Source of the DNA: a virus
Taxonomy: Duplodnaviria > Heunggongvirae > Uroviricota > Caudoviricetes
Virus record (IMG/VR): IMGVR_UViG_2721755711_000002
Strand: one strand, 5' to 3'
DNA length: 64,000 nt
Shown here: positions 1,077 through 56,135 of the stretch, in pieces
How positions within the stretch are numbered: the stretch's first letter is position 1
Layout of the letters: every line of letters starts with the position of its first letter
Program-made: the position numbers and the translations under genes
Notes under the pieces: generated by a model
Told to the model about the DNA's origin: nothing
What the model saw: only the letters and a program-made list of their open reading frames with translations
Database searches by the model: none

Positions 1077-1081
1077 GGTCA

Positions 1082-1103: not shown

Positions 1104-1126
1104 CTTTATCGCACAGGAGAGATGTG

Positions 1127-3790: not shown

Positions 3791-3812
3791 ACGCCGCACC
3801 GGCGTTTTTTTT
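3791..3812 (+). terminator. Intrinsic terminator-like hairpin between V-like and W-like genes (possible attenuator)
   Basis: acgccg-cac-cggcgt stem-loop followed by 8 T. Confidence 0.5.
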
Positions 3813-3824
3813 CGGAAAAATTTC

Positions 3825-5644: not shown

Positions 5645-5653
5645 GTTGTGGGT

Positions 5654-6880: not shown

Positions 6881-6893
6881 TTAAGGAAAAATA

Positions 6894-7421
6894 ATGGAAC
6901 TCGTAAACGTTACGCGTTACTACCCTGAAGACATGCCTTATGGTGAAGGCATTCAGTATTTCCGTAGTGAAGACGGGCAGGATTTTTATGAATCACTGGA
7001 TAAATTCACGAAGAAATACAAGCTGTGCACGCATCCTGAAACCGGCGTTATTTATTCAATGGCGGAAGACGTATCCCGGCTTTATCCGGCAGGTTTTACC
7101 ATTGTGGAAGTGGATGAACTGCCGGAAGGTTTTGGCATTGAAGCCAGCTGGTATTACAAAGACGGAGAAGTGCTGCCGGTGCCTGTTGATTACTCGCGAC
7201 TGGCAGAAAAAAAACGCCAGAGCCTGCTGAATGAAGCAAAGGACATCACCTCCGACTGGAAAACCGAGCTGGAGCTGGGCACCATCAGCGATGATGACAA
7301 AGCCCGTCTTACGCAATGGATGGCATATATCAAAGCGGTAAAGGCGCTGGATTTAAGTCAGGTCAGTGATGAATCATCTTATAATGCCATTGAGTGGCCA
7401 GTACCTCCACAGAACATCTGA
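6894..7421 (+). CDS. Tail fibre assembly protein (Tfa / P2 gpG-like)
   Basis: 175 aa directly downstream of fibre gene; C-terminal ...SYNAIEWPVPP shared with the second tfa at 14669..15217. Confidence 0.75.
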   Translation: MELVNVTRYYPEDMPYGEGIQYFRSEDGQDFYESLDKFTKKYKLCTHPETGVIYSMAEDVSRLYPAGFTIVEVDELPEGFGIEASWYYKDGEVLPVPVDYSRLAEKKRQSLLNEAKDITSDWKTELELGTISDDDKARLTQWMAYIKAVKALDLSQVSDESSYNAIEWPVPPQNI

Positions 7422-7440
7422 AAAAGAAGTTAATCAACAG

Positions 7441-7465
7441 ACCGCCTTTAAGGGCGGTTTTTTTA
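7441..7465 (+). terminator. Intrinsic terminator between tfa and sheath gene
   Basis: accgcc/ggcggt stem followed by 7 T; sheath RBS immediately downstream. Confidence 0.55.
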
Positions 7466-7477
7466 TGGGAGAAATGT

Positions 7478-8953
7478 ATGTCCGGACTACATGGTGTGGA
7501 AACCATTGAACTGACGACAGGCACGGTGGCCGTGCAGACCGTCTCCACGGCAGTGATTGGCCTCGTGGGGACAGCGCCGGACGCCTCCGGCGGTGTGTGT
7601 GCTTCCGGTACTGCCGGATCATGGTTGTTGAGTTCCGCGCTGGATTTTACAGCGAAAAAAGCCGGGCGGTCCGGCAATGAGATTTCAGTTGTGGCCAACG
7701 GAAGCACGCAGCAAAACGCAGAGACAACCGCGGCTCTGGAGGGAAACACCCTGACAATCACACTGGGCACAGATGAACATGGTGAGACGAATGCCACAGC
7801 GTCACGTGTGAAGGAGGTTGTGAATGCGCTGGAGGATTCACCGGTGATGGCCGATACCAGCATGCTGAATGCAGATTCTGTCGGGGAAGGAGTGGTATCT
7901 CCCTTTACCCTGACGTTGTCCGGCGGTGAGGATGAGGCATTTCCGGTTAATACGCCGGTGGTGGTGGCGGGGGCACTCACGCAGGCCGGAAAGCTGGGGG
8001 CTTCCGGAACGCTGTATCCTGCCCTGCGCGATATTTTTGACCAGACCGGTGCGCTGGTGATTGTGGTACGCGCGGAAAGCAAACCGAAAGCGAAGGAGAC
8101 CGAACAGCGTGCTGCAGTGATTAAGGCCATGGAGGCGCTGACGTGGAGTAAAGGCGTAACGGGCTACCAGCCGCGTATTCTTGTCGCCACCGGCTACAGC
8201 GAGGATGATGGTGTGGCAAAGGCGCTGGAAACGTATGCCGCGAAACTGCGGGCTGTTGCCTATATTGACTCCCCATCAATGGCAACGCCGCAGGATGTGG
8301 TTCAGCGCCGGACGTTATTTGGTGGGCGTGTTGAACTGCTTCGTCCGCGTGTGTCGGTGACGGATGACAGCGGACAAACAGTGTTTCGCCCGTATTCGGC
8401 ACGCGCAGCCGGACTACGTGCCCGTATTGATTATGAAAAAGGATGGTGGTGGTCCAAATCAAATCAGGACGTGATGAATATCACCGGTCTTGAGCAGGCG
8501 GATACATTTATTCTCGGGGAGCAGAACTGCACGGCAAACCTGCTGAACATGGAAAACATCTCCACCATTATTCGTCATGACGGTTTTAAACACTGGGGTA
8601 ACCGCCTGTGTACATCTCACAGCCAGTTGCGCTTTGAGTCCGTGCGCCGTACAGCTGATGTGATTGAAGACAGTGTTCAGGAATCCATGTTGCCTTATGT
8701 TGACCGTCCGATTGATCGGGATGTAGCGGACGATATTCTCGGCAGTATTAATGCCTACATGCGCCAGCTTAAAAATCTGGGCGCGATCCACGGTGGTAGC
8801 GCATGGCTGAACGACGAACTGAATACAGCAGAAACCCTGGCTGCCGGGCAGTTGTATATCGACTATGACTTCGGGCCGAAGTCACCACTGGAACGCCTGA
8901 CGCTGCGGACAATGATCAACAATAAACTGGCACGGGAGGAACTGACAGTATGA
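7478..8953 (+). CDS. Tail sheath protein (P2 FI-like)
   Basis: 491 aa, position before tube gene; start at M29 of ORF 7394..8953 with RBS gggaga. Confidence 0.8.
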   Translation: MSGLHGVETIELTTGTVAVQTVSTAVIGLVGTAPDASGGVCASGTAGSWLLSSALDFTAKKAGRSGNEISVVANGSTQQNAETTAALEGNTLTITLGTDEHGETNATASRVKEVVNALEDSPVMADTSMLNADSVGEGVVSPFTLTLSGGEDEAFPVNTPVVVAGALTQAGKLGASGTLYPALRDIFDQTGALVIVVRAESKPKAKETEQRAAVIKAMEALTWSKGVTGYQPRILVATGYSEDDGVAKALETYAAKLRAVAYIDSPSMATPQDVVQRRTLFGGRVELLRPRVSVTDDSGQTVFRPYSARAAGLRARIDYEKGWWWSKSNQDVMNITGLEQADTFILGEQNCTANLLNMENISTIIRHDGFKHWGNRLCTSHSQLRFESVRRTADVIEDSVQESMLPYVDRPIDRDVADDILGSINAYMRQLKNLGAIHGGSAWLNDELNTAETLAAGQLYIDYDFGPKSPLERLTLRTMINNKLAREELTV

Positions 8954-9468
8954 TGTCATGCGAGAAAAAACTGCTACGGGCATGGGCGCTCTTTCTGCCG
9001 GGTGGTATTCGCCTTCAGGGGGCACATGAGTACACGCCTCCGGCCATCAATATCACGAAGGTGGATATCAAAACCGGTGCGATGGATGCGCCGGTGTCAG
9101 TGGATGACGGTATGGAGGCGCTGACCTGCTCGTTTAAAATTTACGGATACGACGTGGCCATACTGACTCTGCTGGGATTGCAGGCAGGGATTTATTCGCC
9201 AGAAATTGTTGTCCGTCAGGCGTATCAGGTGGGCGGTGCAACAAGCGGTCTGGTGGAAACCCTTCAGGGAATGATCACCAGTATCACGCCGGATGCGCGT
9301 CCGTCCACCTCGCAGGCAGAAGCAGCGGTGTCGGTGGAAATGTCACTGAGTTATTACCGCCAGGCTGTCGATGGACTGGAGACCATCTGCATTATTCCGG
9401 AGCAGTTTGTACGGCGCATTAACGGTGTGAATGTGCTGTCGGATCTGAAAAAAATTATCCGGGTGTGA
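8950..9468 (+). CDS. Tail tube protein (P2 FII-like)
   Basis: 172 aa; ATGA overlap with sheath stop; PVSVDDGMEAL pattern like P2 FII. Confidence 0.75.
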   Translation: MMSCEKKLLRAWALFLPGGIRLQGAHEYTPPAINITKVDIKTGAMDAPVSVDDGMEALTCSFKIYGYDVAILTLLGLQAGIYSPEIVVRQAYQVGGATSGLVETLQGMITSITPDARPSTSQAEAAVSVEMSLSYYRQAVDGLETICIIPEQFVRRINGVNVLSDLKKIIRV

Positions 9469-9487
9469 TCTGGAGAAGTGGTCATTC

Positions 9488-9514
9488 AGGCGGTTCAGGC
9501 CGCCTTTTCTTTTT
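9488..9514 (+). terminator. Intrinsic terminator-like hairpin between tube and chaperone genes
   Basis: aggcgg-ttcagg-ccgcct hairpin followed by TTTTCTTTTT. Confidence 0.5.
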
Positions 9515-9528
9515 AAGAGGAAATCAAT

Positions 9529-9831
9529 ATGCCAGAGATAAACAGTATTCCCTGCAGCAGCGTGGAGATTGTGTTATCCGTGCCGTATGTCACTGCGTCA
9601 GGTCAGACAATCTCGCATGTCACCATGCGTGCACCCACCGTCCGCGATCGTCTGTTACATCGCCGGAGTACCAAGCCGGAAGCAGAAGCCGATCTGGATA
9701 TGATAGCCGGCCTGTGCGGAATGGATGCGGCGGACATGATGAATATGGAAGCGTGTGATTACCTGTCCCTGGAGCGGCAGTTTAATGTTTTTTTGCTGCC
9801 GCCGGTCAGGCGGAAGAAGACAGCATCCTGA
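9529..9831 (+). CDS. Tail assembly chaperone (P2 gpE-like), zero-frame product
   Basis: 100 aa between tube and tape measure; contains slippery heptamer near 3' end. Confidence 0.65.
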   Translation: MPEINSIPCSSVEIVLSVPYVTASGQTISHVTMRAPTVRDRLLHRRSTKPEAEADLDMIAGLCGMDAADMMNMEACDYLSLERQFNVFLLPPVRRKKTAS

Positions 9832-18588: not shown

Positions 18589-19335
18589 TTATTTTGCCTG
18601 TTTCATTTTTTCCACCCTCTCAAGCATTCTTTTTACATTTGATGGAGGATAGTTAAATTCATCGCCGTCTCCAAAAGAAATTTTTATAGGCTTCATTTTC
18701 ATAACCAATTCTTTCAGAACCGCTTTACCAATTTCAGTTTTTGGTACTATAAAACCATTTCCATACAAGCATGATTTATAAGTTTTATAATATTCACCAT
18801 TAATCAAAATTGGTGGATACTCTAATGGCCCATCAATTTGCACTGAATTATCGCAAAATCCATTGCCTTTAGATTTTGAAGCAATAAAAATAGCTATTGT
18901 CCCATCATCGCCATACATCAGGAATCTATTTTTACTAACACCTTCCAGTGGAGGTAATATTATCAGTGCACCATCAATATACCATTCAGCGTAATTCTTT
19001 GATTCATTGATTATGTTCTCATTAATTTCATTTAAAGATGAATATTCCCTGAATGCATTAGAATACCATTGTCGAACACATGATTCTGTTTTGCACTTCT
19101 CTCTTTCATTCCACAAGTCTGAAACAATTTTTCTAAAAGCTTTCTTATCAGCGCTCTCTAACTTTACTTTTTGATATAAAGAATTTAATTTATCATCAAG
19201 TTCAGATAATTCACTGTTGCTGCAAATTAACTTTTCAGAATATGATTTAGCTTTCGAGCAATCAAAAGATACCGCATTCGCAGTTCCGATTTGTAATAAA
19301 AAAGCAAACACTACAAATAATTTAAACTTAATCAT
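18589..19335 (-). CDS. Secreted protein with N-terminal DUF1311 / LprI-like domain (cargo gene)
   Basis: Signal peptide MIKFKLFVVFAFLLQIGTANA; FDCSKAKSYSEKLICSNSELSELDDKLNSLY pattern; AT-rich; RBS aggag. Confidence 0.55.
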   Translation of the reverse strand: MIKFKLFVVFAFLLQIGTANAVSFDCSKAKSYSEKLICSNSELSELDDKLNSLYQKVKLESADKKAFRKIVSDLWNEREKCKTESCVRQWYSNAFREYSSLNEINENIINESKNYAEWYIDGALIILPPLEGVSKNRFLMYGDDGTIAIFIASKSKGNGFCDNSVQIDGPLEYPPILINGEYYKTYKSCLYGNGFIVPKTEIGKAVLKELVMKMKPIKISFGDGDEFNYPPSNVKRMLERVEKMKQAK

Positions 19336-19667
19336 CCGTAATCTCCTTAAAAACAGGAGATTAAATTTTACCCATTCTTAATGTCCGTTCAAGTTCATAC
19401 TTTACAACCGCGCCCAGTTGAGTATGATTAAGCGCATGAGGCGTCGAAACCTCTTCTCAGTGCGGTCACAACCAACCCCGTTAGTGTTGGATTTTTTATG
19501 CCTGCTATTTAGTGATGGCACAATGTGCGGTCACATCCCCGAACAATGTCGGGAGGGCGACGAATACAACACCCGAAAGGGGAATAAGTCCGCGGCCTCA
19601 CTGAGCCGTTTCGAACCTCCCGGCTCCACTCCGATAGTGGAAATTCGAAAAAATCAGTGAGGTCGTT

Positions 19668-20237
19668 ATGACAATACAATTAATCCCCGTTTTCAACGGA
19701 ACTATCTCAAACGAAACCGCCCTACTCTGTAATGCTCGTGATCTGCACGCTTTTCTTGGTGTAGGTAAGGTTTTCGCAGCCTGGATTACATCCCGCATCG
19801 CAGAATACGGATTTACAGAAAATCAAGATTACATTTTGCTTTCCAAAACAGGAAAGCAATCGTTAGGAGGCAGAGGAGGACATAACCGCAAGGACTACCA
19901 CCTCACCCTAGACACCGCCAAAGAACTGGCAATGGTCGAGCGCAACGAAAAAGGACGCCAGATCCGCCGATACTTCATCGAGTGCGAGAAGAAGCTGCGC
20001 GAAGATACCACCAGCACACAATCCCCTCTGAATGTTGACATCATCATGCGCGTCAGAAACGGCTCGGTTACCCACATTGAGCACCACAAATCAGGCTCAG
20101 TTATCACCACAGAATGGGCAATTCACTTACTACGCAAAAGTGGATGGATTGTCATGCCACGCGATGAACTTCTTAACACGCCACTGGCCCAATTGATGCC
20201 CGAAAACTTGCCTCAAACCGGAACCTGCGTCCGGTAA
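19668..20237 (+). CDS. AntA/AntB-type antirepressor-like protein (cargo gene, opposite strand)
   Basis: N-terminal NARDLHAFLGVGKVFAAWITSRIAEYGF resembles AntA domain; RBS gtgagg. Confidence 0.5.
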   Translation: MTIQLIPVFNGTISNETALLCNARDLHAFLGVGKVFAAWITSRIAEYGFTENQDYILLSKTGKQSLGGRGGHNRKDYHLTLDTAKELAMVERNEKGRQIRRYFIECEKKLREDTTSTQSPLNVDIIMRVRNGSVTHIEHHKSGSVITTEWAIHLLRKSGWIVMPRDELLNTPLAQLMPENLPQTGTCVR

Positions 20238-45112: not shown

Positions 45113-45189
45113 TGGAGAGCGGGTGACGGGAATCGAACCCGCATCATCAGCCTGGAAAGCTGAGGTAATAGCCATTATACGATACCCGC
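45113..45189 (-). tRNA. tRNA-Gly(UCC)-like gene, possibly degenerate
   Basis: GCGGGTATCGTATAATGGCTATTACCTCAGCTTTCCAGGCTGATGATGCGGGTTCGATTCCCGTCACCCGC...; resembles glyT as recalled but with an A7-C66 mismatch and TCTCCA instead of TCCA at the 3' end. Confidence 0.5.
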
Positions 45190-46952: not shown

Positions 46953-47014
46953 GCTTACTTTGCCATCGCGTACAAAATCGGCAAAATATCAGATTTGCAT
47001 GAAATATATGCTTT

Positions 47015-47710
47015 TTAATCTACTTTTGCAATACTTTGCTTTGAAAATGCCGCCTTTTGTTCCGAACGCGTTCTCATTACCAACAATAAAGCCTCACTAT
47101 CCAGCTGGTGGAAAATGTGTTTCATTGCAACCCAGTGACCAGTAAATGTTTTGGACCAGTTTTTAGTTGTCACTCCCGCCAGTAATGCCAGCTCCTGGTA
47201 TTCATAACCTTCCCCGCCAAAAAGTTCTGCTTTTACTGCCTGCGCCGCCAGCCAGATTAATTTTTTCAGGCGTTCCCGTGTTTTCTCTGCAATTTTCCTG
47301 TTGCCAGAATGAGCCTTAAACTCTTCCCATGCCCAGCGGGTTATGGTGACCTGATACTCCCAGCAAATATTTCCGCTGTAACACCACAACAACCAGGTTT
47401 TATGAGGTTCTTCAAGAGACAGAACAGCCCGTCGCCATGAGGATGTCGAAAACTCAACCTGACTTACCAGAGGAATTGACGTCCCCTTCGCCAGCGATTG
47501 TTTCCCCGGGATTGGTGGATTATCCCGCGTGATCATTTTTCCAGTCACTTCATCGCGGTACCGGATTTTTTTACGCCTGTAACGCCCTGTATCGAACATG
47601 GCATTCTCCTGCCAGGCTTCAAGCTGACCTTTTGTTGCCCCACTCAAATCGGCGGTGGCGATAATGAGCTGCTCACGAACAAACTGTAAATACTGGTTAT
47701 TCATGCGCAC
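47015..47710 (-). CDS. Putative late-gene antiterminator (Q-like)
   Basis: 231 aa directly downstream of rusA and upstream of terminator and lysis region, as in lambdoid phages. Confidence 0.5.
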   Translation of the reverse strand: MRMNNQYLQFVREQLIIATADLSGATKGQLEAWQENAMFDTGRYRRKKIRYRDEVTGKMITRDNPPIPGKQSLAKGTSIPLVSQVEFSTSSWRRAVLSLEEPHKTWLLWCYSGNICWEYQVTITRWAWEEFKAHSGNRKIAEKTRERLKKLIWLAAQAVKAELFGGEGYEYQELALLAGVTTKNWSKTFTGHWVAMKHIFHQLDSEALLLVMRTRSEQKAAFSKQSIAKVD

Positions 47711-48066
47711 TCCAGCCCTGTGATTTTTATCCCCAACCGACCACCAGGAACGACCTGACCGCGCACAATATTGATTTCATCAAACTGCTCGTCGTCTATG
47801 AGAAGTCCGGCATGCGTCAGCGCATCCAGTGGTGCTTTCAGGATATTGTCCAGGTCACGACGGCGCTTATCCGGTGGCTCTGCAATAATCTTTATCGCCA
47901 GCCTTCCGGACAGGTTTAATTTCAGCCGCTGCTGGCGAACAATTAGCGCCACATCACGGCGATAACGCTTTCCGGCCTCCGAGATGAAATACGTATTGCC
48001 ATGACGTCGCCAGTAGGTATTCACCGTCGGCGGGTAAGGCAAAACAAATTCTATGCGTTCAGTCAT
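47701..48066 (-). CDS. rusA: Holliday junction resolvase RusA
   Basis: 121 aa; RusA family pattern (...RRDLDNILKAPLDAL...). Confidence 0.8.
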   Translation of the reverse strand: MTERIEFVLPYPPTVNTYWRRHGNTYFISEAGKRYRRDVALIVRQQRLKLNLSGRLAIKIIAEPPDKRRRDLDNILKAPLDALTHAGLLIDDEQFDEINIVRGQVVPGGRLGIKITGLECA

Positions 48067-49125
48067 TTATGCTTTCCACTTCAGGACACCCGAATTTCTC
48101 GCGTGCATTAAAAAACGAATCAGCAACAACAGCTGGCTGCCGTGTTTTTCTTCAAAATCTTTTACCCCGGCGTGCAGTTCGTTATGACATTTACGGCACA
48201 GCGGAATAACAAACAAATCGTCAGCCTTTGTCCCCATTCCTCCCAGTCCATGACCAATGATGTGATGCGGATCATCTGCCTGAGCGCCACACGTCATGCA
48301 TTTCTGCGTTTTTACCCAGCGCGTGTATACGGGCATCTCTTCCCGTTGTGGTTTCTGGCGCTGGAGATACTGAGCAGGTGCCTCCGGATCAACGGCGATG
48401 CTTACTACCGCCTTTTCCTGTGGTGGGGTTTGTTGCTGGTGGGTGTGAGGCAACGGCACAAGATTTTTTGTGCGCTGCTTCAATATGCTGGTTGCGGTCT
48501 GCTCTCCCGGTACGATGTCGCTTTCGCGGTAAACCGAGCGGATTTTTTCCGCACGTAACCCCAGAGAGCGACGTAATACTGCCTCCGGAAGCGCGTCCGC
48601 CACCTGATTGCAGAGCGCCCACCAGGATAATTCAGCCAGCGATAATTCCCGCTCCTGTGTGCCATTCATTGCATGGCGTATGACGTCAATCATCCATGCT
48701 GACAGGTTTTGGTGAGCAAGTTGCCCGAGTGATTCGGAAGTCTGGTCACGCAGCTGGTTGTCGCAGTGCCAGCACAACACCATCGCGCCGGTGCCGTAAC
48801 GATGTATGACGGTTTCGCTGTGATGGTAATCACCATGAGGCCACTGGCAGGATTTGACATGACACAACAACCAGTCAGACAGTGCACCAGCGCCGCCAGC
48901 AGCATGAATCACCCGCTCATCGCTGAAAAATGGCAGTAATGATTTATCTTCCGCCAGCGGCTGGCGAACGGCAGGAACAACTCCGGACGGCAGACCGCGC
49001 ATGCTTTTCGGTTCCGGCTCCACCAGCACCCTGCCGTTATGGAATACCTGCATGGATTCACGGCCTGGCTTAACGATAACCAGCCCAAGTTCCGGTACCA
49101 GAACAGGTCGAAGTAATACCCGCAC
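48067..49125 (-). CDS. DUF968-like nin-region protein
   Basis: C-terminal CMTCG...DPHHI...CRKCH motif. Confidence 0.6.
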   Translation of the reverse strand: MRVLLRPVLVPELGLVIVKPGRESMQVFHNGRVLVEPEPKSMRGLPSGVVPAVRQPLAEDKSLLPFFSDERVIHAAGGAGALSDWLLCHVKSCQWPHGDYHHSETVIHRYGTGAMVLCWHCDNQLRDQTSESLGQLAHQNLSAWMIDVIRHAMNGTQERELSLAELSWWALCNQVADALPEAVLRRSLGLRAEKIRSVYRESDIVPGEQTATSILKQRTKNLVPLPHTHQQQTPPQEKAVVSIAVDPEAPAQYLQRQKPQREEMPVYTRWVKTQKCMTCGAQADDPHHIIGHGLGGMGTKADDLFVIPLCRKCHNELHAGVKDFEEKHGSQLLLLIRFLMHARNSGVLKWKA

Positions 49126-49126
49126 G

Positions 49127-49399
49127 TTACCTCCAGATCCGTTGCTGGTATGTGCGGGATGGACGCGGTGGGCGTTCGGAGTAAGGAAGCCTGACGGAGA
49201 TTATCCAGTGACGATAATCGAGGCTGAGGGCTTTCCTAAACTCATACCCACGTCTGCGGTAGTTCTGTATCAGCCATTCGGCCTGTTCTTCAGTGCAGGG
49301 GGCATGCTGATACCAGTCATATTTGAATGTGTGAGAACGCCGCCCTTGCCTGCTGGCAGGGGCGGTATCAGAATTGTGATGTTTGGTATTGTGCGCCAT
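49127..49399 (-). CDS. Hypothetical nin-region protein
   Basis: 90 aa basic protein. Confidence 0.35.
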   Translation of the reverse strand: MAHNTKHHNSDTAPASRQGRRSHTFKYDWYQHAPCTEEQAEWLIQNYRRRGYEFRKALSLDYRHWIISVRLPYSERPPRPSRTYQQRIWR

Positions 49400-49516
49400 C
49401 GGTTTTCTCTGCTGGCGCAGCAGGTGCCAGTTGTTCAGGCTGGCCTGTGGATTGTAAACCAGAATACGTAAAACAAAAAACCCGCCGAAGCGGGTCTGGT
49501 TATTGATGAATTAACT

Positions 49517-49777
49517 TCACGGTTTGGGCTGGAAATTCTTATTCAGCGCTCTGCACTGCTCTTTGTCTTCTTCTTCATGGGCTTTAAATACAGAATAAGT
49601 ATCAGGGTCAAAAAACGAGATAGATTCTACTTCCCTCTTGGCTACAAGTATCCGAAAGTCTTCAAGGCTAAGGCCGCCAAGACCTTCCGCTACAATTCCT
49701 TCTGACTGATAATGTCGGCGGTAGTTTGTTGTGATGTTTGTAGTTAACGTACCCTTATCCCGATACCCGATACCCAC
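49517..49777 (-). CDS. Hypothetical protein (possible C-terminal continuation of 49755..50342)
   Basis: AT-rich; 23-nt overlap with upstream ORF. Confidence 0.25.
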   Translation of the reverse strand: MGIGYRDKGTLTTNITTNYRRHYQSEGIVAEGLGGLSLEDFRILVAKREVESISFFDPDTYSVFKAHEEEDKEQCRALNKNFQPKP

Positions 49778-50342
49778 TCAACAGCGGAAGAAGTTCAATA
49801 TGGGTAAAATCGCCGTTTTCAAAACTTGGGCAGATAACAATTCCAACGTAAAATTTTCTGGATGAGAGTGTTATAATGACGGGAAACTGCCTGACTGCTG
49901 CTTCCATAAGGAAGCTCTCTTCTGGACTTGTGGAAACAATTCTTGCGATAGCATCCAACCTGCGATCCCCTTTCTCTGTTCTTTTTTTGCGCCGCCAACC
50001 GCAAAATGCAGCAAGAGCAACAGATGTCATTCCCCAGACTGCAGATTTAAGATCCTTTATCGAATTTCCTCCATCAAAAGAGATAGGAAAAACTCTTTTC
50101 AGGGCATCAGGACCAAGATGAAAAAAATGCAGAATACCGTTAATCAACCAGCGGTATACCCCAAGGAAACCAAGGATCGTACAAACAACCCACGCAACAC
50201 AGACAAAAACAGCTCCCCAGGTTGCAACAAAAAAATAAGCGTCCCATCCCACAGAACGCTTATACCTATATCTTGTTTCCAAACAAAGAGTAACATAAAC
50301 ATAACCACTAATCAGTATGACAGCGATCAATAGCGTATTCAT
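49755..50342 (-). CDS. Membrane protein (AT-rich cargo gene)
   Basis: Three N-terminal hydrophobic helices; overlaps ORF 49517..49777 in another frame (possible frameshift or two genes). Confidence 0.35.
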   Translation of the reverse strand: MNTLLIAVILISGYVYVTLCLETRYRYKRSVGWDAYFFVATWGAVFVCVAWVVCTILGFLGVYRWLINGILHFFHLGPDALKRVFPISFDGGNSIKDLKSAVWGMTSVALAAFCGWRRKKRTEKGDRRLDAIARIVSTSPEESFLMEAAVRQFPVIITLSSRKFYVGIVICPSFENGDFTHIELLPLLSGYRVSG

Positions 50343-50344
50343 TC

Positions 50345-50551
50345 TTACCCTAGCTTTTTGTTTTCCAATGACTCAAGCTTGTCCAGCTGTTCTTTGATAG
50401 CCTTTCTGACCTTGTCGTTCTCAAGGTTAACCATGATGAAACCATCGTCGCTTACTTCGAACTTATCCTTGTTTTCTTTAAGAACTTTTGACAACCTGTT
50501 CGATGGTGTCTGTATGGTTCCATACCCTCTTATTGCATATGCGAGACTCAT
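50345..50551 (-). CDS. Hypothetical small protein
   Basis: 68 aa, Lys/Glu-rich. Confidence 0.3.
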   Translation of the reverse strand: MSLAYAIRGYGTIQTPSNRLSKVLKENKDKFEVSDDGFIMVNLENDKVRKAIKEQLDKLESLENKKLG

Positions 50552-50797
50552 TCTTACCTCCCATCTTACCGTTATCACCGTGTAGTGACACTGTTACATC
50601 CATGTATAAATGCTTTGATACTATGGCTATACCATTAAAATAAGTTTACCGGAAGACTTTGATCAACTACTTTTCACACCAGATACACAAATAATGTGAA
50701 ACACAACATAGAAATTGTCAAAACCGCCGGGTGGCGGGTGCGTTGAGGATGCCTGACACATCAGAGGTGGCGAGGGATTTCTCCCCCGCCAGGTCTC

Positions 50798-50953
50798 TTA
50801 CTCCTCAGATTCGTAAGCTGTGAAGACAGCGACCTCCGTCTGGCCGGTTCGGATTCGTACCTCGCAGAGGTCTTTCCTCGTTACCAGTGCCGTCACTATG
50901 ACGGTTAAACAGATGACGATCAGGGCGATTAACATCGCCTTTTGCTGCTTCAT
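50798..50953 (-). CDS. hok: Hok/Gef family type I toxin
   Basis: MKQQKAMLIALIVICLTVIVTALVTRKDLCEVRIRTGQTEVAVFTAYESEE; in-frame leader upstream (mok-like) and GC-rich stem-loops downstream. Confidence 0.8.
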   Translation of the reverse strand: MKQQKAMLIALIVICLTVIVTALVTRKDLCEVRIRTGQTEVAVFTAYESEE

Positions 50954-51243
50954 AGCCTGCTTCTCCTTGCCTTTCGGCACGTAAGAGGCTAACCTACATG
51001 TGTTCAGCATGGATTGAGCCTCAGATTAATGTTAAGCGTCTTGCAGGACGCGTAATGTTAACTGGGGCTTTTCTCTATCTGCCGTTGGTGTTCATGCCCG
51101 AGGCAGATAGCCTCAAGCACCCGCAGCAATTCTACTTAACTCTCCTTTTCCCGCAAACCGTTTTTATCCCCATCGGCAAATCGAATACACCACCAGCGCC
51201 ACCGCCATCGCAATTCCTACCGTTGTGAATGCTTCGGGCCAGG

Positions 51244-51807
51244 TCATCGCAAAACATCCTCCGCACTTATCAGTTCGTTCCGCTTCAGGTAGTCCATCGC
51301 CTTATCCGGCAATTTACAGTCCGGCTTCACTTTCTTCAGTTGACTGACCAATTGCTTAACCAGCATGGTTAATTCGTCAGTCTGTTTGCCTGGTACTGGT
51401 GGATTGTCGGTTGTACCATGACTGGCAGTACAGTTGGCACTTCCTCCCTTCTCCTCCCGCAGCGGTTCAGGCAACGCATCCAGTGATGCTTTCACAAACC
51501 ACGCTGCCTGTACTATAACGCCATGAATCCAGCGCAAATCAGCATCGCGATCGTTCTTTTTCATCTTTTCACCACTTAAAGCCTGGCTTATGTGGCTGCG
51601 AACCAGGTCTTCATGTAACTCCTTCGCATCCTCAATGGTGAAACCACCAGGCAGGCGAGCCGGAGTTACCGGAGAGTTGCCAGCCTTACGCATGGCCATT
51701 TCCACGATTTCAACCATATCTCCTGGTGGAATTTTACAAAGTTGCCCAATACATTTCTGCTGCCTGGCATATTCGAGAATGTGTTCCAGTTTGGTTCGAT
51801 TAATCAT
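51244..51807 (-). CDS. Hypothetical nin-region protein
   Basis: 187 aa. Confidence 0.35.
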   Translation of the reverse strand: MINRTKLEHILEYARQQKCIGQLCKIPPGDMVEIVEMAMRKAGNSPVTPARLPGGFTIEDAKELHEDLVRSHISQALSGEKMKKNDRDADLRWIHGVIVQAAWFVKASLDALPEPLREEKGGSANCTASHGTTDNPPVPGKQTDELTMLVKQLVSQLKKVKPDCKLPDKAMDYLKRNELISAEDVLR

Positions 51808-52397
51808 TATTTATCTCCCTTAAGCATGGTGGCGCGGCAGGCGTTCCAGCCATCAGCATATGTTTCAGTTACACCGTCGAGATGGCAGGTAAGCAAATCC
51901 ATTTCATCCGGCACTATCAGCACCGGCTGGACAGTGACATTGGCAAAGGCAGCACGCAACCCGGCCTTAATTTCCTCTACCTCATCAGCACTTGGAGATG
52001 AGTCTGACAGTGCATGATGGAATGCGTAAGCCATGTCGTCGTTTACTGCAACCGGCTCTGCTTCCAGTGATACCAGTGCAATCTGCGTCCTGACCCACGC
52101 CACCCGCTCCGGATTCATATGGCACATGTTGTTCCCTTTTTCTTCATAGTAATGCCCTTTACTCTCGTTAAATGGCAACACCTCATTCAGCCCGGCACTT
52201 CTGAAATCAGCGTGTAATTGTTCCAGTGCCGCTTCGCTGGAGGTACCGATTGATGTGAGATAATCGAAAAGATTGGCGCATAAACCATAATTTCGAGAAA
52301 ACACCCCACCTGGTTTCGCCCCATTACTCAGCCACAAATCATAAGCAATATAAAACCCGTAAAGCTGTTTTCTGATATTTTCTTTGGTTTCTTGCAT
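51807..52397 (-). CDS. Hypothetical nin-region protein
   Basis: 196 aa. Confidence 0.35.
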   Translation of the reverse strand: MQETKENIRKQLYGFYIAYDLWLSNGAKPGGVFSRNYGLCANLFDYLTSIGTSSEAALEQLHADFRSAGLNEVLPFNESKGHYYEEKGNNMCHMNPERVAWVRTQIALVSLEAEPVAVNDDMAYAFHHALSDSSPSADEVEEIKAGLRAAFANVTVQPVLIVPDEMDLLTCHLDGVTETYADGWNACRATMLKGDK

Positions 52398-52528
52398 TAT
52401 TTATTACCGCCCTTTCTGGCGGCCTCCTGGTGTTCTGAGGGTGCAGGAATCCCTCCGGTTAAGGATTTAATAAAATTCACTTCTGCTTTAAATTTTTCAG
52501 TGTTTTGTTGTCAGGTGTTTTATCGCCT

Positions 52529-52840
52529 TTATGCTTCAGCCTTATTTCTCAGCCATACACAAACAGGACCATCTTCAGTGTCATGAATGGAACCAATGAA
52601 CCAGCCTTCACCTTCCGGGCGCTCCGGTTTCCAGGAGGCAATATCGGGACCATCTGCGTCCAGATTAAAATCATCTTCATCCATAGTTCTGATGGTCCAT
52701 TGAAGATTATTTTCCTCCATCCATGCGTTAAACTCTTCCGTTGAAATATGTTCTCTACCATCACAGAATTTTTCATATTCAGGATGCGTCCAGCAGCCAT
52801 ATGTATCACGTTCTACCGGCATTTCTTTGATTTCGTTCAT
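52529..52840 (-). CDS. Hypothetical protein
   Basis: ~103 aa acidic protein. Confidence 0.3.
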   Translation of the reverse strand: MNEIKEMPVERDTYGCWTHPEYEKFCDGREHISTEEFNAWMEENNLQWTIRTMDEDDFNLDADGPDIASWKPERPEGEGWFIGSIHDTEDGPVCVWLRNKAEA

Positions 52841-53032
52841 AACATTAACTCCATTAAAATAATGCAAAACACATTAACCACACCACTACAACCGATGCTA
52901 TTAACACCCTGATTGCAAACAGTGGACTGATATGTCGAAAAGGATTTTCCCAGATAATAAAAGCCGCTGCCAGAAATGCACTGTTCAGGAATACAATAAC
53001 AAACAGCTCAATTTTGATTATCCAGAACATAT

Positions 53033-53329
53033 TCACTGCATCGCCTTCTGTAAAATAACCGCATGCCCCAGTTTCTCCGCCAGTGCCAGTTCTGCCTTAG
53101 CACCTGCCGACCGCTGCCAGCCATTCAGCATATAAATCGCATCCACGCAACGTATCATCGCCATGCAGATATCCATGTACTGCAACTGAGTCAGTCCGTC
53201 CGGAAGTACTGCCGGGTTTAAGACGGTATGCCCTTCACGTTTCAGTTCCTCTTCCGCCTTGTGAAACGCCTCACGGTTGAAATTTTTATATCCCGTCATT
53301 GGGCCAGCAATATAAACTCTCACCCTCAC
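53033..53329 (-). CDS. DUF4406-like protein (nucleoside deoxyribosyltransferase-like)
   Basis: N-terminal VYIAGPMTG motif. Confidence 0.55.
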   Translation of the reverse strand: MRVRVYIAGPMTGYKNFNREAFHKAEEELKREGHTVLNPAVLPDGLTQLQYMDICMAMIRCVDAIYMLNGWQRSAGAKAELALAEKLGHAVILQKAMQ

Positions 53330-53661
53330 TCCTGAACTCTCCTGTCGAAATAAACGTAGTTATTCACTGTGCGCAACGGCATTCCAAATTTTATGGCGAT
53401 TTCTCTCCTGGACACGCCACGCTGATGCAGTTGTCGCGCCAGCTCAATATCGCTCTGAAGATATTTTGCTGACTGGTGAAAATCACCACGCAGAATCAGA
53501 CTTATTCCCATCTCCCGGGCTTTCGTCCTGACAGCCGCCTCACTACGACCAATCAGACTGCCGATGCTTTTTACCTTCATTGTTCCCGCGCACTGCCGCA
53601 GAATAAGGATTTCAGCCCGCACCCAGCCACGCCATCTCACTTCACATCCTCTCTGGAACAA
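53326..53661 (-). CDS. Hypothetical HTH-like protein
   Basis: Two HTH-like segments. Confidence 0.3.
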   Translation of the reverse strand: MFQRGCEVRWRGWVRAEILILRQCAGTMKVKSIGSLIGRSEAAVRTKAREMGISLILRGDFHQSAKYLQSDIELARQLHQRGVSRREIAIKFGMPLRTVNNYVYFDRRVQE

Positions 53662-54422
53662 TTCATCTGCCGTACAATATCCCGGTGCTTGTTAAGCTCC
53701 CGCAGCGCCGCGCAGACTCGCTCCCACTTCCGGACATGATTTTTCGCCCGACGCAGTTCGCGGTTTGCCATGTGCAGCGATGGTAAAATCAGGTCATTCG
53801 CACGCGTTTCGGTAAACGATGGCAGCGACTGCACAATGTCCGCCACAGTTTCTGTTTTAATATCTTCCTGTGTTGCAACCTCCTGTACTGGTAACGCAAC
53901 CCCCGCTGGCTGAGGAAAGGCTTTACCATCAGTTTTCGCTACCGATACAAATTTCGGCTCTGCTGGTAAATTTTCCCCGGTTTCTTTTACCAGCATCCAC
54001 TTACACCCCTTCCCCTGTCCCAGCTTAATCGCCATGCCATCGCGGCAAAGCTTTTCCATCGCAGAAACCAGCGACCTGACGCAATCAGCACGCCCCACAG
54101 CAATTGCAATCTCAGCGGTGGTCATTGCCCCACCATGAGCAAGTGTGGACAGGATGTCGCAGCGATTCAGTGGCTCACGGTCTTTTCTGCTGACCACCAT
54201 GCGGGATTTTCTTTCCGCTTTACACACCGGCACTGTTTTTTCTTTCACGCCACTTTGTCGTTCTGAAACAGACCAGTAACCATTAACCGATACAACTTCT
54301 CCCTGCTCTTCGTACTCCCGCAACATTTTAATCGCCTCAGCCGGTGCAATGCCCAAACTGGTAGCAAGCTCAGTGCACGTCACCTTTTGCATCGCTTTTA
54401 ACGTATCAATCAACGTTTCCAT
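53637..54422 (-). CDS. Putative replication protein at lambda P position (winged-helix repeats; not lambda P-like)
   Basis: Directly downstream of O-like gene; no ATPase motif seen. Confidence 0.35.
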   Translation of the reverse strand: METLIDTLKAMQKVTCTELATSLGIAPAEAIKMLREYEEQGEVVSVNGYWSVSERQSGVKEKTVPVCKAERKSRMVVSRKDREPLNRCDILSTLAHGGAMTTAEIAIAVGRADCVRSLVSAMEKLCRDGMAIKLGQGKGCKWMLVKETGENLPAEPKFVSVAKTDGKAFPQPAGVALPVQEVATQEDIKTETVADIVQSLPSFTETRANDLILPSLHMANRELRRAKNHVRKWERVCAALRELNKHRDIVRQMNCSREDVK

Positions 54423-54467
54423 TAAAATTTCTCCCGTTAAAAATTATTTACCAATCTCAAACAAAAC

Positions 54468-55433
54468 TTACCCCCTGAACCCTGGTGGAATTTCGGTGTC
54501 CGGTTCAGAAATGTGATTCACACAACGCTGCGCGGGACCACGCCACAGTCGAATAACCAGCTCATCCCATTTTTCACGGAGTTTTTCCGGGCTCTTGATG
54601 TTTTTTATCCAGAACGGATCCCGTTGTGCCCGACTGAACATTTCGCAAATTTGTCTGTGACTTCTTCCATCCAGCATCCGCATTGTGCGCACATCATTGG
54701 CCCACGTAGTCCAGTTGGGCTCTTTCGGTCGCGTGATCTCACCATCATCGCTCGCAGCCTGCTCGTACAGGTTTAAAACCCGCCCCCAGATCCACTGCGC
54801 ACACGTCAAATCCTCCCGGGTTCCCCACTGGCGTTTTTTTACACTGAACACAGCTGCGTCAGGATGGCGGGTTAAAAACTCCTGTTCAGCCGTCTGCTCG
54901 TCCGGTTGCGAAGCGTCCGGACAAGAGAGTTTTTTATTCTCTGTAGTAATCTCTGTTGTATTCTCTGTAGGATCATCGGGCCATTTTGACCTGATGACAT
55001 TGGGTCGTTTTGAACCAATGGAGTGTGTCATTTTGGCATCTTCCATCGTGTCATTTTGACCTGATGGAGCGGCGCATTTTGACCTGATGGATTCGCTCAA
55101 TTTGCCATCATCTAAAAGCTTGCTCTCGTAATTGATCGTGTAGAAATTAGTCATATCGCGCTTTGATTTATTGAGCTTTTCGCAACGCAAAAGCCCCAGC
55201 GTTTTCAGACTTGCAAATGCACGTTTTAACGTTGACTCTGACCAGAACGGGAACTGTTCCAGCCATTGTTCCGTTGTGTTATAAATCCAGCGAACACCAT
55301 CACATTCCATGCCGGAACTGGTATCTCTCAACCAGTAATGCAGCTGCTGCAACACGATGGCTTCGTTCAGACCAATTTTCATCGCCAGCTGCGTGTTTAT
55401 AACCAGCGGGCGTTCAGCAAAAAGGAGCTTCAT
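54468..55433 (-). CDS. Replication initiation protein, lambda O-like
   Basis: C-terminal WGTREDLTCAQWIWG...WANDVRTMRMLDGRSHRQICEMF...SPEKLREKWDEL parallels lambda O. Confidence 0.75.
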   Translation of the reverse strand: MKLLFAERPLVINTQLAMKIGLNEAIVLQQLHYWLRDTSSGMECDGVRWIYNTTEQWLEQFPFWSESTLKRAFASLKTLGLLRCEKLNKSKRDMTNFYTINYESKLLDDGKLSESIRSKCAAPSGQNDTMEDAKMTHSIGSKRPNVIRSKWPDDPTENTTEITTENKKLSCPDASQPDEQTAEQEFLTRHPDAAVFSVKKRQWGTREDLTCAQWIWGRVLNLYEQAASDDGEITRPKEPNWTTWANDVRTMRMLDGRSHRQICEMFSRAQRDPFWIKNIKSPEKLREKWDELVIRLWRGPAQRCVNHISEPDTEIPPGFRG

Positions 55434-55453
55434 CCCACCCCCATAACACGTTA

Positions 55454-55879
55454 TCAATGCGCGACCACGGCATTTCCCGCCGGGCCGCCACGATTCATCT
55501 GATTGAAACCAGCAATCGCCACTGCGACAAAATCATCAGCGTCTCTCACCAGTCGTTCCCGCGTCTCCACCAGTTCCCGAAACCAGGCTGAACTGTGGCT
55601 GCGCATTCGGGCCACCAGCAGAGGTGGCATTGCTTTTTCGATCGCTGGTAACAACGCCTGAATTTTTTTAACCGCATCAGGAGTGTCTTTCTCCACCCAG
55701 CGGAAAATTTTCTGGGTGTTACGGCCCAGGGCTTCCGGATGGCTGTCGTCGTACAATTCCGGGAACGTCATACCGAGTTCGAAATACGCTTTGGTAATTT
55801 TCGCAGCCGGTACTTTCTCGCCGTCTGGATGCGCCCAGGCATTCATCGCCATGCGGATGTGTTCATGCTTGATTTTCAT
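55454..55879 (-). CDS. Putative CII-like regulatory protein
   Basis: Position between cro-like gene and O-like gene. Confidence 0.35.
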   Translation of the reverse strand: MKIKHEHIRMAMNAWAHPDGEKVPAAKITKAYFELGMTFPELYDDSHPEALGRNTQKIFRWVEKDTPDAVKKIQALLPAIEKAMPPLLVARMRSHSSAWFRELVETRERLVRDADDFVAVAIAGFNQMNRGGPAGNAVVAH

Positions 55880-56135
55880 GAATCAACTCCGGCGCATTTG
55901 ATGTGTTAACCTTACATCCAACAGGTAAACCGTCGGTTGGGTTAGGGTATTTATCAGGGCGCAATTCATGCGGAGTCACTCCCCAGCCAAGCGCCTCACA
56001 TGCTGGAATGACCTCCTCCGCAGGAACTCGTTTTTTAAACCACCCACTTATAGTTTGTGGAGTTTTACCAAGACGACGCCCTAACTCTGATTGGCTCATT
56101 ATCGACAGGATTTTCACTTGAGTACTTTTTTGCAT
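55863..56135 (-). CDS. Cro-like HTH regulator
   Basis: HTH SQSELGRRLGKTPQTISGW; divergent from repressor; RBS ggaggg. Confidence 0.55.
   Translation of the reverse strand: MQKSTQVKILSIMSQSELGRRLGKTPQTISGWFKKRVPAEEVIPACEALGWGVTPHELRPDKYPNPTDGLPVGCKVNTSNAPELIHENQA

What the first reader, a model, noticed from the sequence alone, without database searches (positions are those of the whole stretch)
50700..51060. hok/sok-type type I toxin locus embedded in the nin region
A 51-aa Hok/Gef-family toxin with an in-frame upstream leader and GC-rich 3' stem-loops (50700-50797) sits among replication-side genes. A Sok-like antisense RNA would be expected on the + strand around 50950-51020 but cannot be confirmed by eye.
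Basis: partly seen in the sequence, partly recalled or inferred. Interest (0 to 1): 0.45.

Follow-up and report, generated by a model that had tools for sequence, protein, structure and literature searches.

The report
Intact hokD/hokW-type hok/sok toxin–antitoxin module
This is an intact copy of a well-known small "host-killing" toxin gene (hok) with its antisense RNA antidote (sok). It sits at its usual place in a lambda-like prophage and is nearly identical to the hokW-sokW system already studied in E. coli O157, so it is real but ordinary.

Summary

- **Toxin:** a 51-aa Hok/Gef toxin lies on the minus strand (50953-50798; Pfam E=3e-23). It is 50/51 identical to E. coli K-12 HokD (RelF) and 48/51 to HokW of phage 933W/Sp5. 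It sits inside an in-frame 70-codon mok frame (51010-50798).
- **Leader:** the Rfam model RF01794 scores 113.5 bits (cut-off 59) on the hok-sense strand, so it models the mRNA leader, not the antisense RNA.
- **Antitoxin:** Sok maps to 51002-51072 (+). Its promoter (-35 at 50967-72, -10 at 50990-95) is base-for-base the one that Takada et al. 2021 inactivated by mutation in Sp5.
- **Regulatory elements:** all canonical RNA elements are present. Pairing between the two ends of the mRNA shows compensatory changes across 35 homologues.
- **Extent:** the true locus is about 50720-51156, wider than the 50700-51060 reported.
- **Context:** the module lies between the replication genes and DUF968-RusA-Q, the slot hokD occupies in K-12 prophage Qin. 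In 78 of 80 related viral contigs every recognisable neighbour marker was on hok's strand.

The molecular mechanism is well supported by homology. The biological role (helping lysis on induction, addiction or phage exclusion) is inferred. Novelty: already known.

The parts
51129..51156 (-). Presumed hok promoter: -35 TTGCGG (51156-51151), 16-nt spacer, -10 TAGAAT (51134-51129), 6 nt before the mRNA start
   Evidence: Read from the sequence. Its position relative to Rfam model position 1 at 51122 comes. It falls below the threshold of the consensus scan, so it is inferred only.
50720..51122 (-). Full-length hok mRNA (about 400 nt). The 5' end is set by Rfam model position 1. The 3' end is inferred at the terminator-like hairpin plus T run.
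   Evidence: Rfam RF01794 covers 51122-50948, 113.5 bits. The MFE is -165.7 kcal/mol, z=-6.8, with the 5' and 3' ends paired. The window's MFE structure laid on 35 homologues gives 86.8% of cells paired, against about 40% when partners are slid, and 37 pairs with changes on both sides.
51115..51122 (-). tac element (GGGUGCUU), the 5' end of the mRNA. It pairs with fbi in the full-length form and with ucb in the truncated form.
   Evidence: Folds of the 401-nt and 361-nt forms. Element names follow PMC9841398.
51064..51070 (-). ucb, the anti-SD box (AAGCCCC). It pairs with the mok SD region in the full-length fold and with tac in the truncated fold.
50798..51010 (-). mok reading frame: 70 codons, in frame with hok. 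Its SD (GAGG) is at 51022-51019 and its ATG at 51010.
   Evidence: ORF list. It is identical in the first 19 codons to the annotated mokW of 933W.
50985..50990 (-). dcb (AGCCUC). It pairs with the mok SD (GAGGCU, 51022-51017) in the truncated mRNA to form the Sok-target hairpin.
   Evidence: Fold of the 361-nt form. The same hairpin appears in the Rfam consensus structure.
50798..50953 (-). hok toxin gene, 51 aa plus stop. Its SD (AAGGAG) is at 50968-50963.
   Evidence: Pfam PF01848 E=3e-23. It is 50/51 identical to K-12 HokD and 48/51 to HokW. Eleven IMG/VR loci encode a 100% identical Hok.
50812..50815 (-). TACG at Tyr47 within an invariant UUACGAA loop. This is a candidate TadA A-to-I editing site (Tyr to Cys) of the kind reported for K-12 hokD.
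   Evidence: The loop is invariant in 35 homologues. The 3-bp stem is 99% paired, with compensatory changes in 2 of 3 pairs. K-12 hokD is reported as 6% edited (PMC12214031). The hairpin is not stable when folded on its own.
50769..50790 (-). GC-rich 3' hairpin (GGCGGGGGA-GAAA-UCCCUCGCC). By analogy with R1 it is the stem-loop that protects the 3' end of the truncated mRNA.
   Evidence: Helix 17 is 97.2% paired across homologues. The role is taken from PMC9841398.
50736..50748 (-). fbi element (CCUCAACGCACCC), complementary to the mRNA 5' end
   Evidence: Duplex of -21.5 kcal/mol, 49 nt after the stop. A matching duplex lies 45-56 nt after the stop in 34 of 37 homologous loci, with compensatory U-A to C-G and G-C to A-U changes.
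50720..50737 (-). Terminator-like hairpin CCGCC-ACCC-GGCGG followed by TTTT. The 3' boundary of homology to 933W falls here.
   Evidence: Sequence and alignment with 933W. It has only four Ts, so the terminator scan does not report it. It is inferred.
50967..50995 (+). sok promoter: -35 TTGCCT (50967-72), 17-nt spacer, -10 TAACCT (50990-95)
   Evidence: Identical to Sp5/933W. The 'pro-less' primer YO-421 of Takada et al. differs from the window at 4 bases in 50989-96, and that mutation abolished antitoxin activity.
51002..51072 (+). Sok antisense RNA, 71 nt: a 14-nt single-stranded 5' tail complementary to the mok start codon region, a long hairpin, then GGGGCUUUU
   Evidence: Mapped from the annotated sokW of 933W. 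Fold -30 kcal/mol, z=-5.0. The northern probe YO-592 matches 51002-51031 exactly.

Best explanation

**Mechanism, inferred by homology to R1 hok/sok and Sp5 hokW-sokW:**
1. A weak constitutive promoter makes a stable hok mRNA of about 400 nt.
2. That mRNA is inert because its 5' end (tac) is paired to its 3' end (fbi) and the mok ribosome-binding site is sequestered by ucb.
3. Slow 3' trimming back to the GC-rich hairpin releases tac. Tac then pairs with ucb, and the mok SD moves into a hairpin with dcb.
4. The refolded mRNA can be translated, with hok translation coupled to mok. It can also be bound by Sok.
5. Sok is a short-lived 71-nt antisense RNA made from its own promoter inside the mok/hok SD region. 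Its single-stranded 5' tail covers the mok start codon.
6. Sok binding blocks translation and leads to RNase III cleavage.
7. When Sok synthesis stops, the mRNA pool yields Hok, a single-pass inner-membrane peptide that collapses the membrane.

**Biological role, less certain:** by analogy with Sp5, the module fires on prophage induction and speeds growth arrest, lysis and phage release.
For: **Shown here**
- The Hok domain is present.
- The Rfam leader model scores 113.5 bits on the hok strand.
- The mok frame is present.
- The full-length fold shows tac-fbi pairing, and the truncated fold shows the tac-ucb and SD-dcb hairpins.
- The fbi duplex is conserved with compensatory changes in Escherichia, Kluyvera, Photorhabdus, Pantoea, Erwinia and Citrobacter loci.
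- Sok has the expected 5'-tail, hairpin and U-run architecture.
- 375 of 388 nt of the mRNA, and 174 of the 175 leader nt, are identical to 933W hokW-sokW.
- Primers and probes from the Sp5 study match exactly, including the mutated -10 hexamer.

**From the literature**
- Sp5 HokW is toxic and sokW neutralises it.
- sokW RNA disappears and HokW appears after mitomycin C in a RecA-dependent way.
- Deleting the locus delays growth arrest by about 40 min and halves phage release (PMC8621323).
- The R1 folding pathway and element names come from PMC9841398.

**Context**
- The slot and orientation match hokD in Qin and phage vB_EcoS-689R5.
- 78 of 80 IMG/VR loci had at least one of these markers, and every marker found was on hok's strand.
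Against: - No transcript, processing or toxicity data exist for this copy. Promoters, RNA ends and 3' trimming are inferred.
- Neither promoter reaches the threshold of the consensus scan, and the terminator has only four Ts.
- The 3' flank differs from 933W immediately after fbi, so the 3' end and processing could differ.
- Hok differs from the tested HokW at 3 C-terminal residues.
- Native chromosomal hokA, hokB and hokC loci were reported unable to mediate post-segregational killing (cited in 10.1101/2025.08.07.668861).
- The lysis-assist role was shown for a copy located near attR, not in a nin region.
- NCBIfam Hok models score below their curated cut-offs (51.4 bits against 73).
Confidence: 0.9

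Rival explanations
1. The cassette is a decayed, non-functional hok relic, like most K-12 chromosomal hok loci. It would be kept only because prophage DNA is slow to erode.
For: - K-12 hokD lacks the promoter, mok start and sok; its homology to the window begins only at 50967.
- Other K-12 hok loci are reported as inactivated (PMC12214031).
- Some fetched loci carry damaged hok frames (L021, L042, L043).
Against: - Every element is present here, and the leader differs from the functional Sp5/933W system at one loop base.
- The Hok ORF is intact and identical in 11 viral contigs.
- The RNA pairings are preserved.
Confidence: 0.04
2. The molecular machine is the same, but its main role is prophage addiction. 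Cells that lose or delete the prophage are killed as Sok decays, as happens with R1 plasmid loss.
For: - This is the canonical function of plasmid hok/sok.
- hok genes are enriched about four-fold in prophages (23% observed against 5% expected; 10.1101/2025.08.07.668861).
- The 933W annotators labelled hokW 'prophage maintenance'.
Against: - Native chromosomal hokA, hokB and hokC loci did not mediate post-segregational killing.
- Takada et al. found a positive effect on phage release instead.
- Excision normally leads to lytic growth, so killing cured cells would matter only for rare curing or deletion events.
- Nothing in the sequence separates this role from the others.
Confidence: 0.25
3. 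The molecular machine is the same, but its main role is abortive-infection defence of the lysogen. A superinfecting lytic phage shuts off host transcription, Sok decays, and Hok kills the cell before the invader completes its cycle.
For: - R1 hok/sok on a high-copy plasmid reduced T4 plating by 42% and plaque size by about 85% (cited in PMC8621323).
- The slot just downstream of hok is a variable cargo site in related phages. Here it carries a low-GC insert.
Against: - hok is not enriched near defence systems (section title; discussion).
- PADLOC has no hit for Hok or its neighbours.
- The effect was shown only at high copy number.
- There are no data for single-copy prophage hok.
Confidence: 0.2
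4. The antitoxin RNA is encoded on the same strand as hok, as the Rfam 'sok' hit on the minus strand might suggest, and not antisense on the plus strand.
For: The only Rfam match above the gathering score is on the minus strand.
Against: - The model is 157 nt long. It starts at the mRNA 5' end and ends at the hok AUG.
- In all loci examined (38 full-length matches plus 2 cut by a locus end) it lies on the hok strand directly upstream of hok. It therefore describes the hok leader.
- The annotated and experimentally probed sokW is antisense.
Confidence: 0.01

Closest known systems
hokW-sokW (mokW) of Stx2 phages 933W / Sakai prophage 5 (Sp5)
   Same: - 375 of 388 nt of the mRNA are identical, and 174 of 175 nt of the leader.
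- The first 19 mok codons are identical (the frames differ only at the 3 Hok positions), and so are the sok promoter, the 71-nt Sok and the tac and fbi elements.
- The shared block includes the small upstream ORF (51247-50734).
- HokW is the experimentally characterised relative (PMC8621323).
   Different: - Hok differs at 3 C-terminal residues (T45V, A46D, E51K).
- The 3' flank diverges right after fbi, and the window has its own hairpin plus TTTT.
- The genomic position differs. In 933W the cassette lies next to attR, beyond the tail genes, on the int/pL strand. Here it lies in the nin region on the pR-operon strand.
hokD (relF) of cryptic prophage Qin, E. coli K-12
   Same: - Hok is 50/51 identical (S49P).
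- It occupies the same slot and orientation, upstream of a small gene, ydfU (DUF968) and the Q-like antiterminator ydfT.
- The K-12 hokD transcript is reported to be A-to-I edited at the equivalent Tyr codon.
   Different: - K-12 hokD is a 5'-truncated remnant fused behind relBE. Homology to the window starts at 50967, so it has no hok promoter, no mok start and no sok RNA.
- The window copy is complete.
hok/sok (parB) of plasmid R1
   Same: - It shares the architecture and all named elements: tac, ucb, mok SD, dcb, the hok SD overlapped by the sok promoter, the 3' hairpin, and fbi followed by a terminator.
- In an IncFII plasmid locus whose Hok is 100% identical to R1 Hok, the leader is 168 nt (169 nt here) and the mok ATG is 57 nt upstream of hok, in frame.
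   Different: - HokW is 44% identical to R1 Hok.
- Compared with the Rfam consensus and with the hokC-type and Photorhabdus-type loci, the Sok/target hairpin carries an extra 16-20 nt.
- The replicon is a prophage rather than a low-copy plasmid, so the trigger and the benefit probably differ.
hokC/gef (mokC, sokC), the chromosomal locus
   Same: - The Hok subfamily is the same, about 80% identical.
- The 5' end (GGGUGCUUGAGGCU) and the fbi type are the same.
   Different: - The Sok hairpin is shorter and the promoter -10 region differs.
- It sits at a fixed chromosomal site rather than in a phage.

Membership tests
[quoted passage not shown] | Small (about 50 aa) Hok/Gef toxin with an N-terminal transmembrane helix and a conserved periplasmic part (Pfam PF01848) | tested here: met
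   PF01848 E=3e-23, 81.6 bits against a cut-off of 22, covering profile positions 1-42 of 42. NCBIfam Hok models match but fall below their curated cut-offs.
[quoted passage not shown] | An overlapping upstream reading frame (mok) with its own SD, to which hok translation is coupled | tested here: met
   A 70-codon ORF starts at 51010 with GAGG 8 nt upstream. It is identical in the first 19 codons to the annotated mokW. Translational coupling itself was not tested.
[quoted passage not shown] | Structured hok mRNA leader (Rfam RF01794, named 'sok') | tested here: met
   113.5 bits against a gathering score of 59, with the full model 1-157 matched on the hok strand. The opposite strand scores 11.5 bits.
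[quoted passage not shown] | Cis-encoded antisense RNA (Sok) with its own promoter inside the mok/hok SD region, a single-stranded 5' tail, a hairpin and a U run | tested here: met
   The sequence is identical to the annotated and mutated sokW promoter and RNA apart from one loop base. The fold shows a 14-nt tail plus hairpin, z=-5.0. Whether it is transcribed cannot be tested here.
[quoted passage not shown] | Long-range 5'-3' pairing (tac-fbi) that locks the full-length mRNA | tested here: met
   The pairing is present in the MFE. The duplex is -21.5 kcal/mol. It is conserved 45-56 nt after the stop in 34 of 37 homologues, with compensatory changes. Helix 1 is 91.4% paired, with 4 pairs changed on both sides.
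[quoted passage not shown] | [quoted passage not shown] | tested here: met
   The fold of a 361-nt form gives exactly these two helices, and they match the Rfam consensus structure. The real truncation point is unknown.
[quoted passage not shown] | Hok is toxic and Sok neutralises it; hok mRNA is stable and Sok is unstable | not testable with these tools
   Toxicity, neutralisation by sokW and the loss of sokW RNA after induction while hokW mRNA persists were shown for Sp5 hokW-sokW, whose leader is nearly identical (PMC8621323). They were not shown for this copy.
hokD/hokW subfamily of lambdoid prophages | Hok at least about 94% identical to HokD/HokW, with the long-hairpin Sok variant | tested here: met
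   50/51 identical to HokD and 48/51 to HokW. The 16-20-nt hairpin extension is shared with 933W and the related Escherichia and Kluyvera loci L002, L003, L009-L011, L024 and L027-L030.
hokD/hokW subfamily of lambdoid prophages | Location between the replication genes and DUF968-RusA-Q, co-oriented with them | tested here: met
   Shown for the window, Qin and vB_EcoS-689R5. 78 of 80 IMG/VR loci had at least one marker, always on hok's strand. 933W/Sp5 is the exception, with the cassette near attR.

The most novel reading that the evidence does not exclude
The cassette may be wired to prophage induction by sense read-through from an antiterminated early operon.

- **In the window:** hok points the same way as the early-right operon (cII-O-...-Q). 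78 of 80 related viral contigs had recognisable markers, and all of those markers were on hok's strand.
- **In 933W/Sp5:** hok lies next to attR on the int/pL strand. Leftward early transcription would therefore enter it only after excision and circularisation.
- **Proposed mechanism:** in both layouts, induced early transcription would run through hok in sense and collide head-on with the weak sok promoter. That would shut off the short-lived antitoxin while supplying more hok RNA.
- **What it would explain:** the RecA- and induction-dependent loss of sokW RNA that Takada et al. left unexplained.

This is my inference from gene orientation only.
Probability: 0.3. Interest if true: 0.4.

Novelty: already known. 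Interest (0 to 1): 0.1.

Why it matters
For genome annotation, the result marks an intact hok/mok/sok cassette, probably functional by sequence. Standard pipelines would label it only as a 'Hok/Gef family protein', without the antisense RNA, the mok frame or the mRNA elements.

It also clarifies that Rfam RF01794 reports the hok leader strand and not Sok.

Biologically it adds nothing new in kind. hok is present in most E. coli genomes: 4732 of 5426 complete genomes match this 651-nt query. It is known to be enriched in prophages, and a nearly identical copy has been characterised.

The only open question it touches is what switches such prophage-borne copies on during induction. The orientation pattern seen here suggests a testable answer.

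Tried and rejected
- **Consensus scan:** the promoter/terminator scan of 50500-51400 found nothing. Both promoters and the terminator are sub-consensus, so the scan was uninformative and is not evidence against them.
- **PADLOC:** no Hok or neighbour hit.
- **NCBIfam:** only sub-threshold Hok hits.
- **A label I got wrong:** I first called the 3' segment 50764-50750 'dcb'. After reading PMC9841398 I corrected this. The dcb is AGCCUC at 50990-50985. The 3' segment is only an extra long-range partner of the mok start region in the MFE, and it is weakly conserved (helices 5-7, 53-72% paired).
- **The mok frame in R1:** I recalled that mok is out of frame with hok in R1. In an IncFII plasmid locus whose Hok is 100% identical to R1 Hok, the upstream ATG is in frame, as it is here. 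I therefore make no claim that the in-frame arrangement is unusual.
- **Source organism:** I could not identify it. No complete E. coli genome covers more than 66% of 47000-56000 (93.6% identity) or more than 67% of 1-20000 (88%). The single genome-contig scan went on Hok relatives.
- **Third component:** I asked whether the small ORF upstream of hok is a constant part of the module. It is not. Only 18 of 129 hok leaders examined in the fetched loci have it, and others carry unrelated small hydrophobic ORFs or none.
- **Anticodon-arm-like hairpin at Tyr47:** it is not stable when folded alone. Only the covariation supports it.

Full report
**1. What is in the sequence**

On the minus strand a 70-codon ORF runs 51010..50798. 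Its last 51 codons (ATG at 50953) encode MKQQKAMLIALIVICLTVIVTALVTRKDLCEVRIRTGQTEVAVFTAYESEE. Pfam HOK_GEF matches at E=3e-23 over the whole profile. The protein is 50/51 identical to E. coli K-12 HokD (RelF), 48/51 to HokW of phage 933W, and about 80% to HokC/Gef.

A window-wide Rfam scan gives one relevant hit, RF01794 'sok', at 113.5 bits (gathering score 59, E=4.8e-25) on 51122..50948 of the minus strand.

**2. What the Rfam hit means**

The model is 157 nt long. It starts at GGGUGCUUGAGG and ends at the hok AUG. The plus strand scores only 11.5 bits. In the 40 homologous loci scanned from other genomes it gave 38 full-length matches and 2 cut at a locus end, every one on the hok strand just upstream of a hok gene where the sequence extended that far. 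It is therefore a model of the hok mRNA leader, which contains the Sok target. It is not a model of the antisense RNA. The hit confirms the locus but does not by itself demonstrate Sok.

**3. Sok and its promoter**

Phage 933W (AF125520) annotates mokW, hokW and a 71-nt antisense sokW. Over the mRNA the window is 375/388 identical to 933W. Within the 175-nt leader it differs at a single base (51045), which lies in a hairpin loop.

Transferring the annotation puts Sok at 51002-51072 (+). Its promoter has -35 TTGCCT at 50967-72, a 17-nt spacer, and -10 TAACCT at 50990-95.

Takada et al. 2021 (PMC8621323) worked on the same locus in Sakai prophage 5. They showed:
- HokW is toxic.
- sokW expressed from its own promoter neutralises it.
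- Mutating the -10 hexamer removes protection.
- sokW supplied in trans restores protection.
- Both RNAs are visible on northern blots.

Their primers and probes match the window exactly. The 'pro-less' primer differs from the window only at four bases in 50989-50996, which pins down the -10 hexamer.

Folded alone, the 71-nt RNA has a 14-nt single-stranded 5' tail, a long interrupted hairpin and a GGGGCUUUU end (-30 kcal/mol, z=-5.0). The tail is complementary to AAUCCAUGCUGAAC, which spans the mok start codon.

**4. The mRNA switch**

Element names follow Le Rhun et al. 2022 (PMC9841398).

The 401-nt form (51122-50722) folds to -165.7 kcal/mol (z=-6.8). Its first 12 nt (tac) pair with CCUCAACGCACCC at 50748-50736 (fbi). 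The mok SD region pairs with AAGCCCC at 51070-64 (ucb).

A 361-nt form ending just after the GC-rich hairpin at 50790-50769 refolds. Tac now pairs with ucb, and GAGGCU (the mok SD) pairs with AGCCUC at 50990-85 (dcb). This forms the target hairpin drawn in the Rfam consensus.

I tested the long-range pairing phylogenetically:
- In 34 of 37 hok loci from Escherichia, Shigella, Kluyvera, Citrobacter, Pseudocitrobacter, Pantoea, Erwinia and Photorhabdus, the first 12-14 nt form a duplex with a site 45-56 nt after the stop codon.
- GGGUGC/GCACCC is replaced by GGGCGC/GCGCCC, and GAGG/CCUC by GAGA/UCUC.
- On a 35-sequence alignment, the window's full-length MFE structure has 86.8% of cells paired, against 38-44% when partners are slid by 1-3 columns.
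- 37 pairs are changed on both sides. No shuffle out of 500 reached the observed pairing or covariation score.

The presumed hok promoter (TTGCGG, 16 nt, TAGAAT at 51156-51129) and the terminator-like hairpin with four Ts (50737-20) are read from the sequence only. The consensus scan does not report them.

**5. An additional known layer**

The Tyr47 codon (TAC, 50815-13) followed by G lies in a UUACGAA loop that is invariant in all 35 homologues. A 3-bp stem flanks it. The stem is 99% paired, with C-G to U-A and G-C to A-U exchanges.

This resembles the tRNA-Arg anticodon arm that TadA recognises. K-12 hokC, hokD and hokE transcripts are reported to be edited from Tyr to Cys at this position, with hokD at 6% (PMC12214031). 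The hairpin is not stable when folded alone, and editing here is untested.

**6. Context**

Upstream on the same strand lie, in order:
- a CII-like gene (55454-55879);
- an O-like replication gene (54468-55457);
- a phrog_630 gene of unknown function that sits where P would (53637-54422);
- several small genes of unknown function.

Downstream lie a 90-aa gene, DUF968/YdfU (48067-49125), RusA, Q (47015-47710) and a DNA methyltransferase. So the 'nin region' placement is correct.

The same slot holds hokD in K-12 prophage Qin (relB-relE-hokD-rem-x-ydfU-ydfT) and the 'host killer protein' of phage vB_EcoS-689R5. The K-12 copy keeps only the part from 50967 onward, so it lacks the promoter, the mok start and sok.

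Among 80 IMG/VR contigs encoding a Hok at least 98% identical, 78 carry recognisable cII, O or P-like genes upstream and/or the 90-aa gene, DUF968, RusA or Q downstream. Every such marker is on the hok strand.

In 933W/Sp5 the cassette instead lies next to attR, on the strand of int, xis and the pL operon.

**7. How common it is**

- The 651-nt query matches 4732 of 5426 complete E. coli genomes, with a median of 2 places per genome, and 106 phage records.
- More than 574 viral-contig stretches encode relatives.
- A recent survey found Hok in almost 80% of Enterobacteriaceae genomes and about four-fold enriched in prophages (10.1101/2025.08.07.668861).

**8. Function**

The molecular mechanism is the canonical hok/sok one and is supported at every point that sequence can test.

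The biological role is inferred. The only direct data, from Sp5, show that sokW RNA vanishes and HokW appears on RecA-dependent induction. They also show that the locus advances growth arrest by about 40 min and doubles phage release. Addiction and abortive infection remain possible, and none of these roles excludes the others.

From orientation alone I propose that induced, antiterminated early transcription reads through hok in sense and silences the convergent sok promoter. In 933W/Sp5 this could happen only after circularisation. This is untested.

**9. Verdict**

The locus runs about 50720-51156 rather than 50700-51060, and Sok lies at 51002-51072. It is a complete member of an already characterised subfamily in its usual genomic slot. 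Interest is low.

Noticed in passing
window 51164-51247 (-): A 27-aa hydrophobic ORF (MTWPEAFTTVGIAMAVALVVYSICRWG) lies just upstream of the hok promoter. Its ATG overlaps the stop of the upstream gene (ATGA).

The block shared with 933W and other phages starts exactly at this ATG. The ORF is kept open, with both synonymous and conservative changes, upstream of 18 of the 129 hok leaders examined in the fetched loci.

Other loci carry unrelated small hydrophobic ORFs at the same position, for example ...VYCLVVFLMDRLGN or ...LGVFMAVMCIEYWR. It is unannotated in 933W.
   Followed up: partly
window 49478-50720 (-): A low-GC insert (39-44% GC against 50-57% in the flanks) lies between hok and the 90-aa/DUF968 genes.

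It holds a 68-aa gene (50551-50345, phrog_9843) and a 195-aa membrane-type gene (50342-49755, phrog_3630, matching only 191 of 274 profile positions). An overlapping 86-aa ORF (49777-49517) follows, which may mean a frameshifted gene. The insert ends at a strong hairpin terminator at 49497-49478.

None of the 80 related viral contigs has these genes. The distance from hok to the 90-aa gene varies from 323 to 2541 nt among them, so this looks like a variable cargo slot.
   Followed up: partly
window 50948-51122 (-); loci L002-L052: The Rfam family RF01794, named 'sok antitoxin', matches the hok-sense strand in every locus examined. It spans mRNA position +1 to the hok AUG, so automated annotation with it will place 'sok' on the wrong strand and with the wrong extent.
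   Followed up: yes
window 19548-19632 (+): An Rfam sRNA-Xcc1 match (72.4 bits, gathering score 53) lies far from the hok locus. The same family also hit two hok-bearing loci from Photorhabdus and Erwinia (L036, L052).
   Followed up: no
window 45118-45189 (-): A tRNA gene (Rfam 52.5 bits) lies downstream of Q and the DNA methyltransferase. Related lambdoid phages carry tRNA genes at this position.
   Followed up: no
window 1-13770: A second phage-like region with a contractile tail (tail sheath, VgrG/Pvc8-type and major capsid genes) is only 86-88% identical to its best E. coli matches. No complete E. coli genome covers more than two-thirds of either region tested, so the source may not be a sequenced E. 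coli lineage.
   Followed up: partly
L033 2856-4206; L049 2550-2940; L051 2662-2934: In Photorhabdus temperata, three hok leaders lie in tandem about 630 nt apart. In Erwinia sp. CGal63 and Kalamiella, the hok leader starts about 100 nt after CRISPR-DR4 repeats.
   Followed up: no
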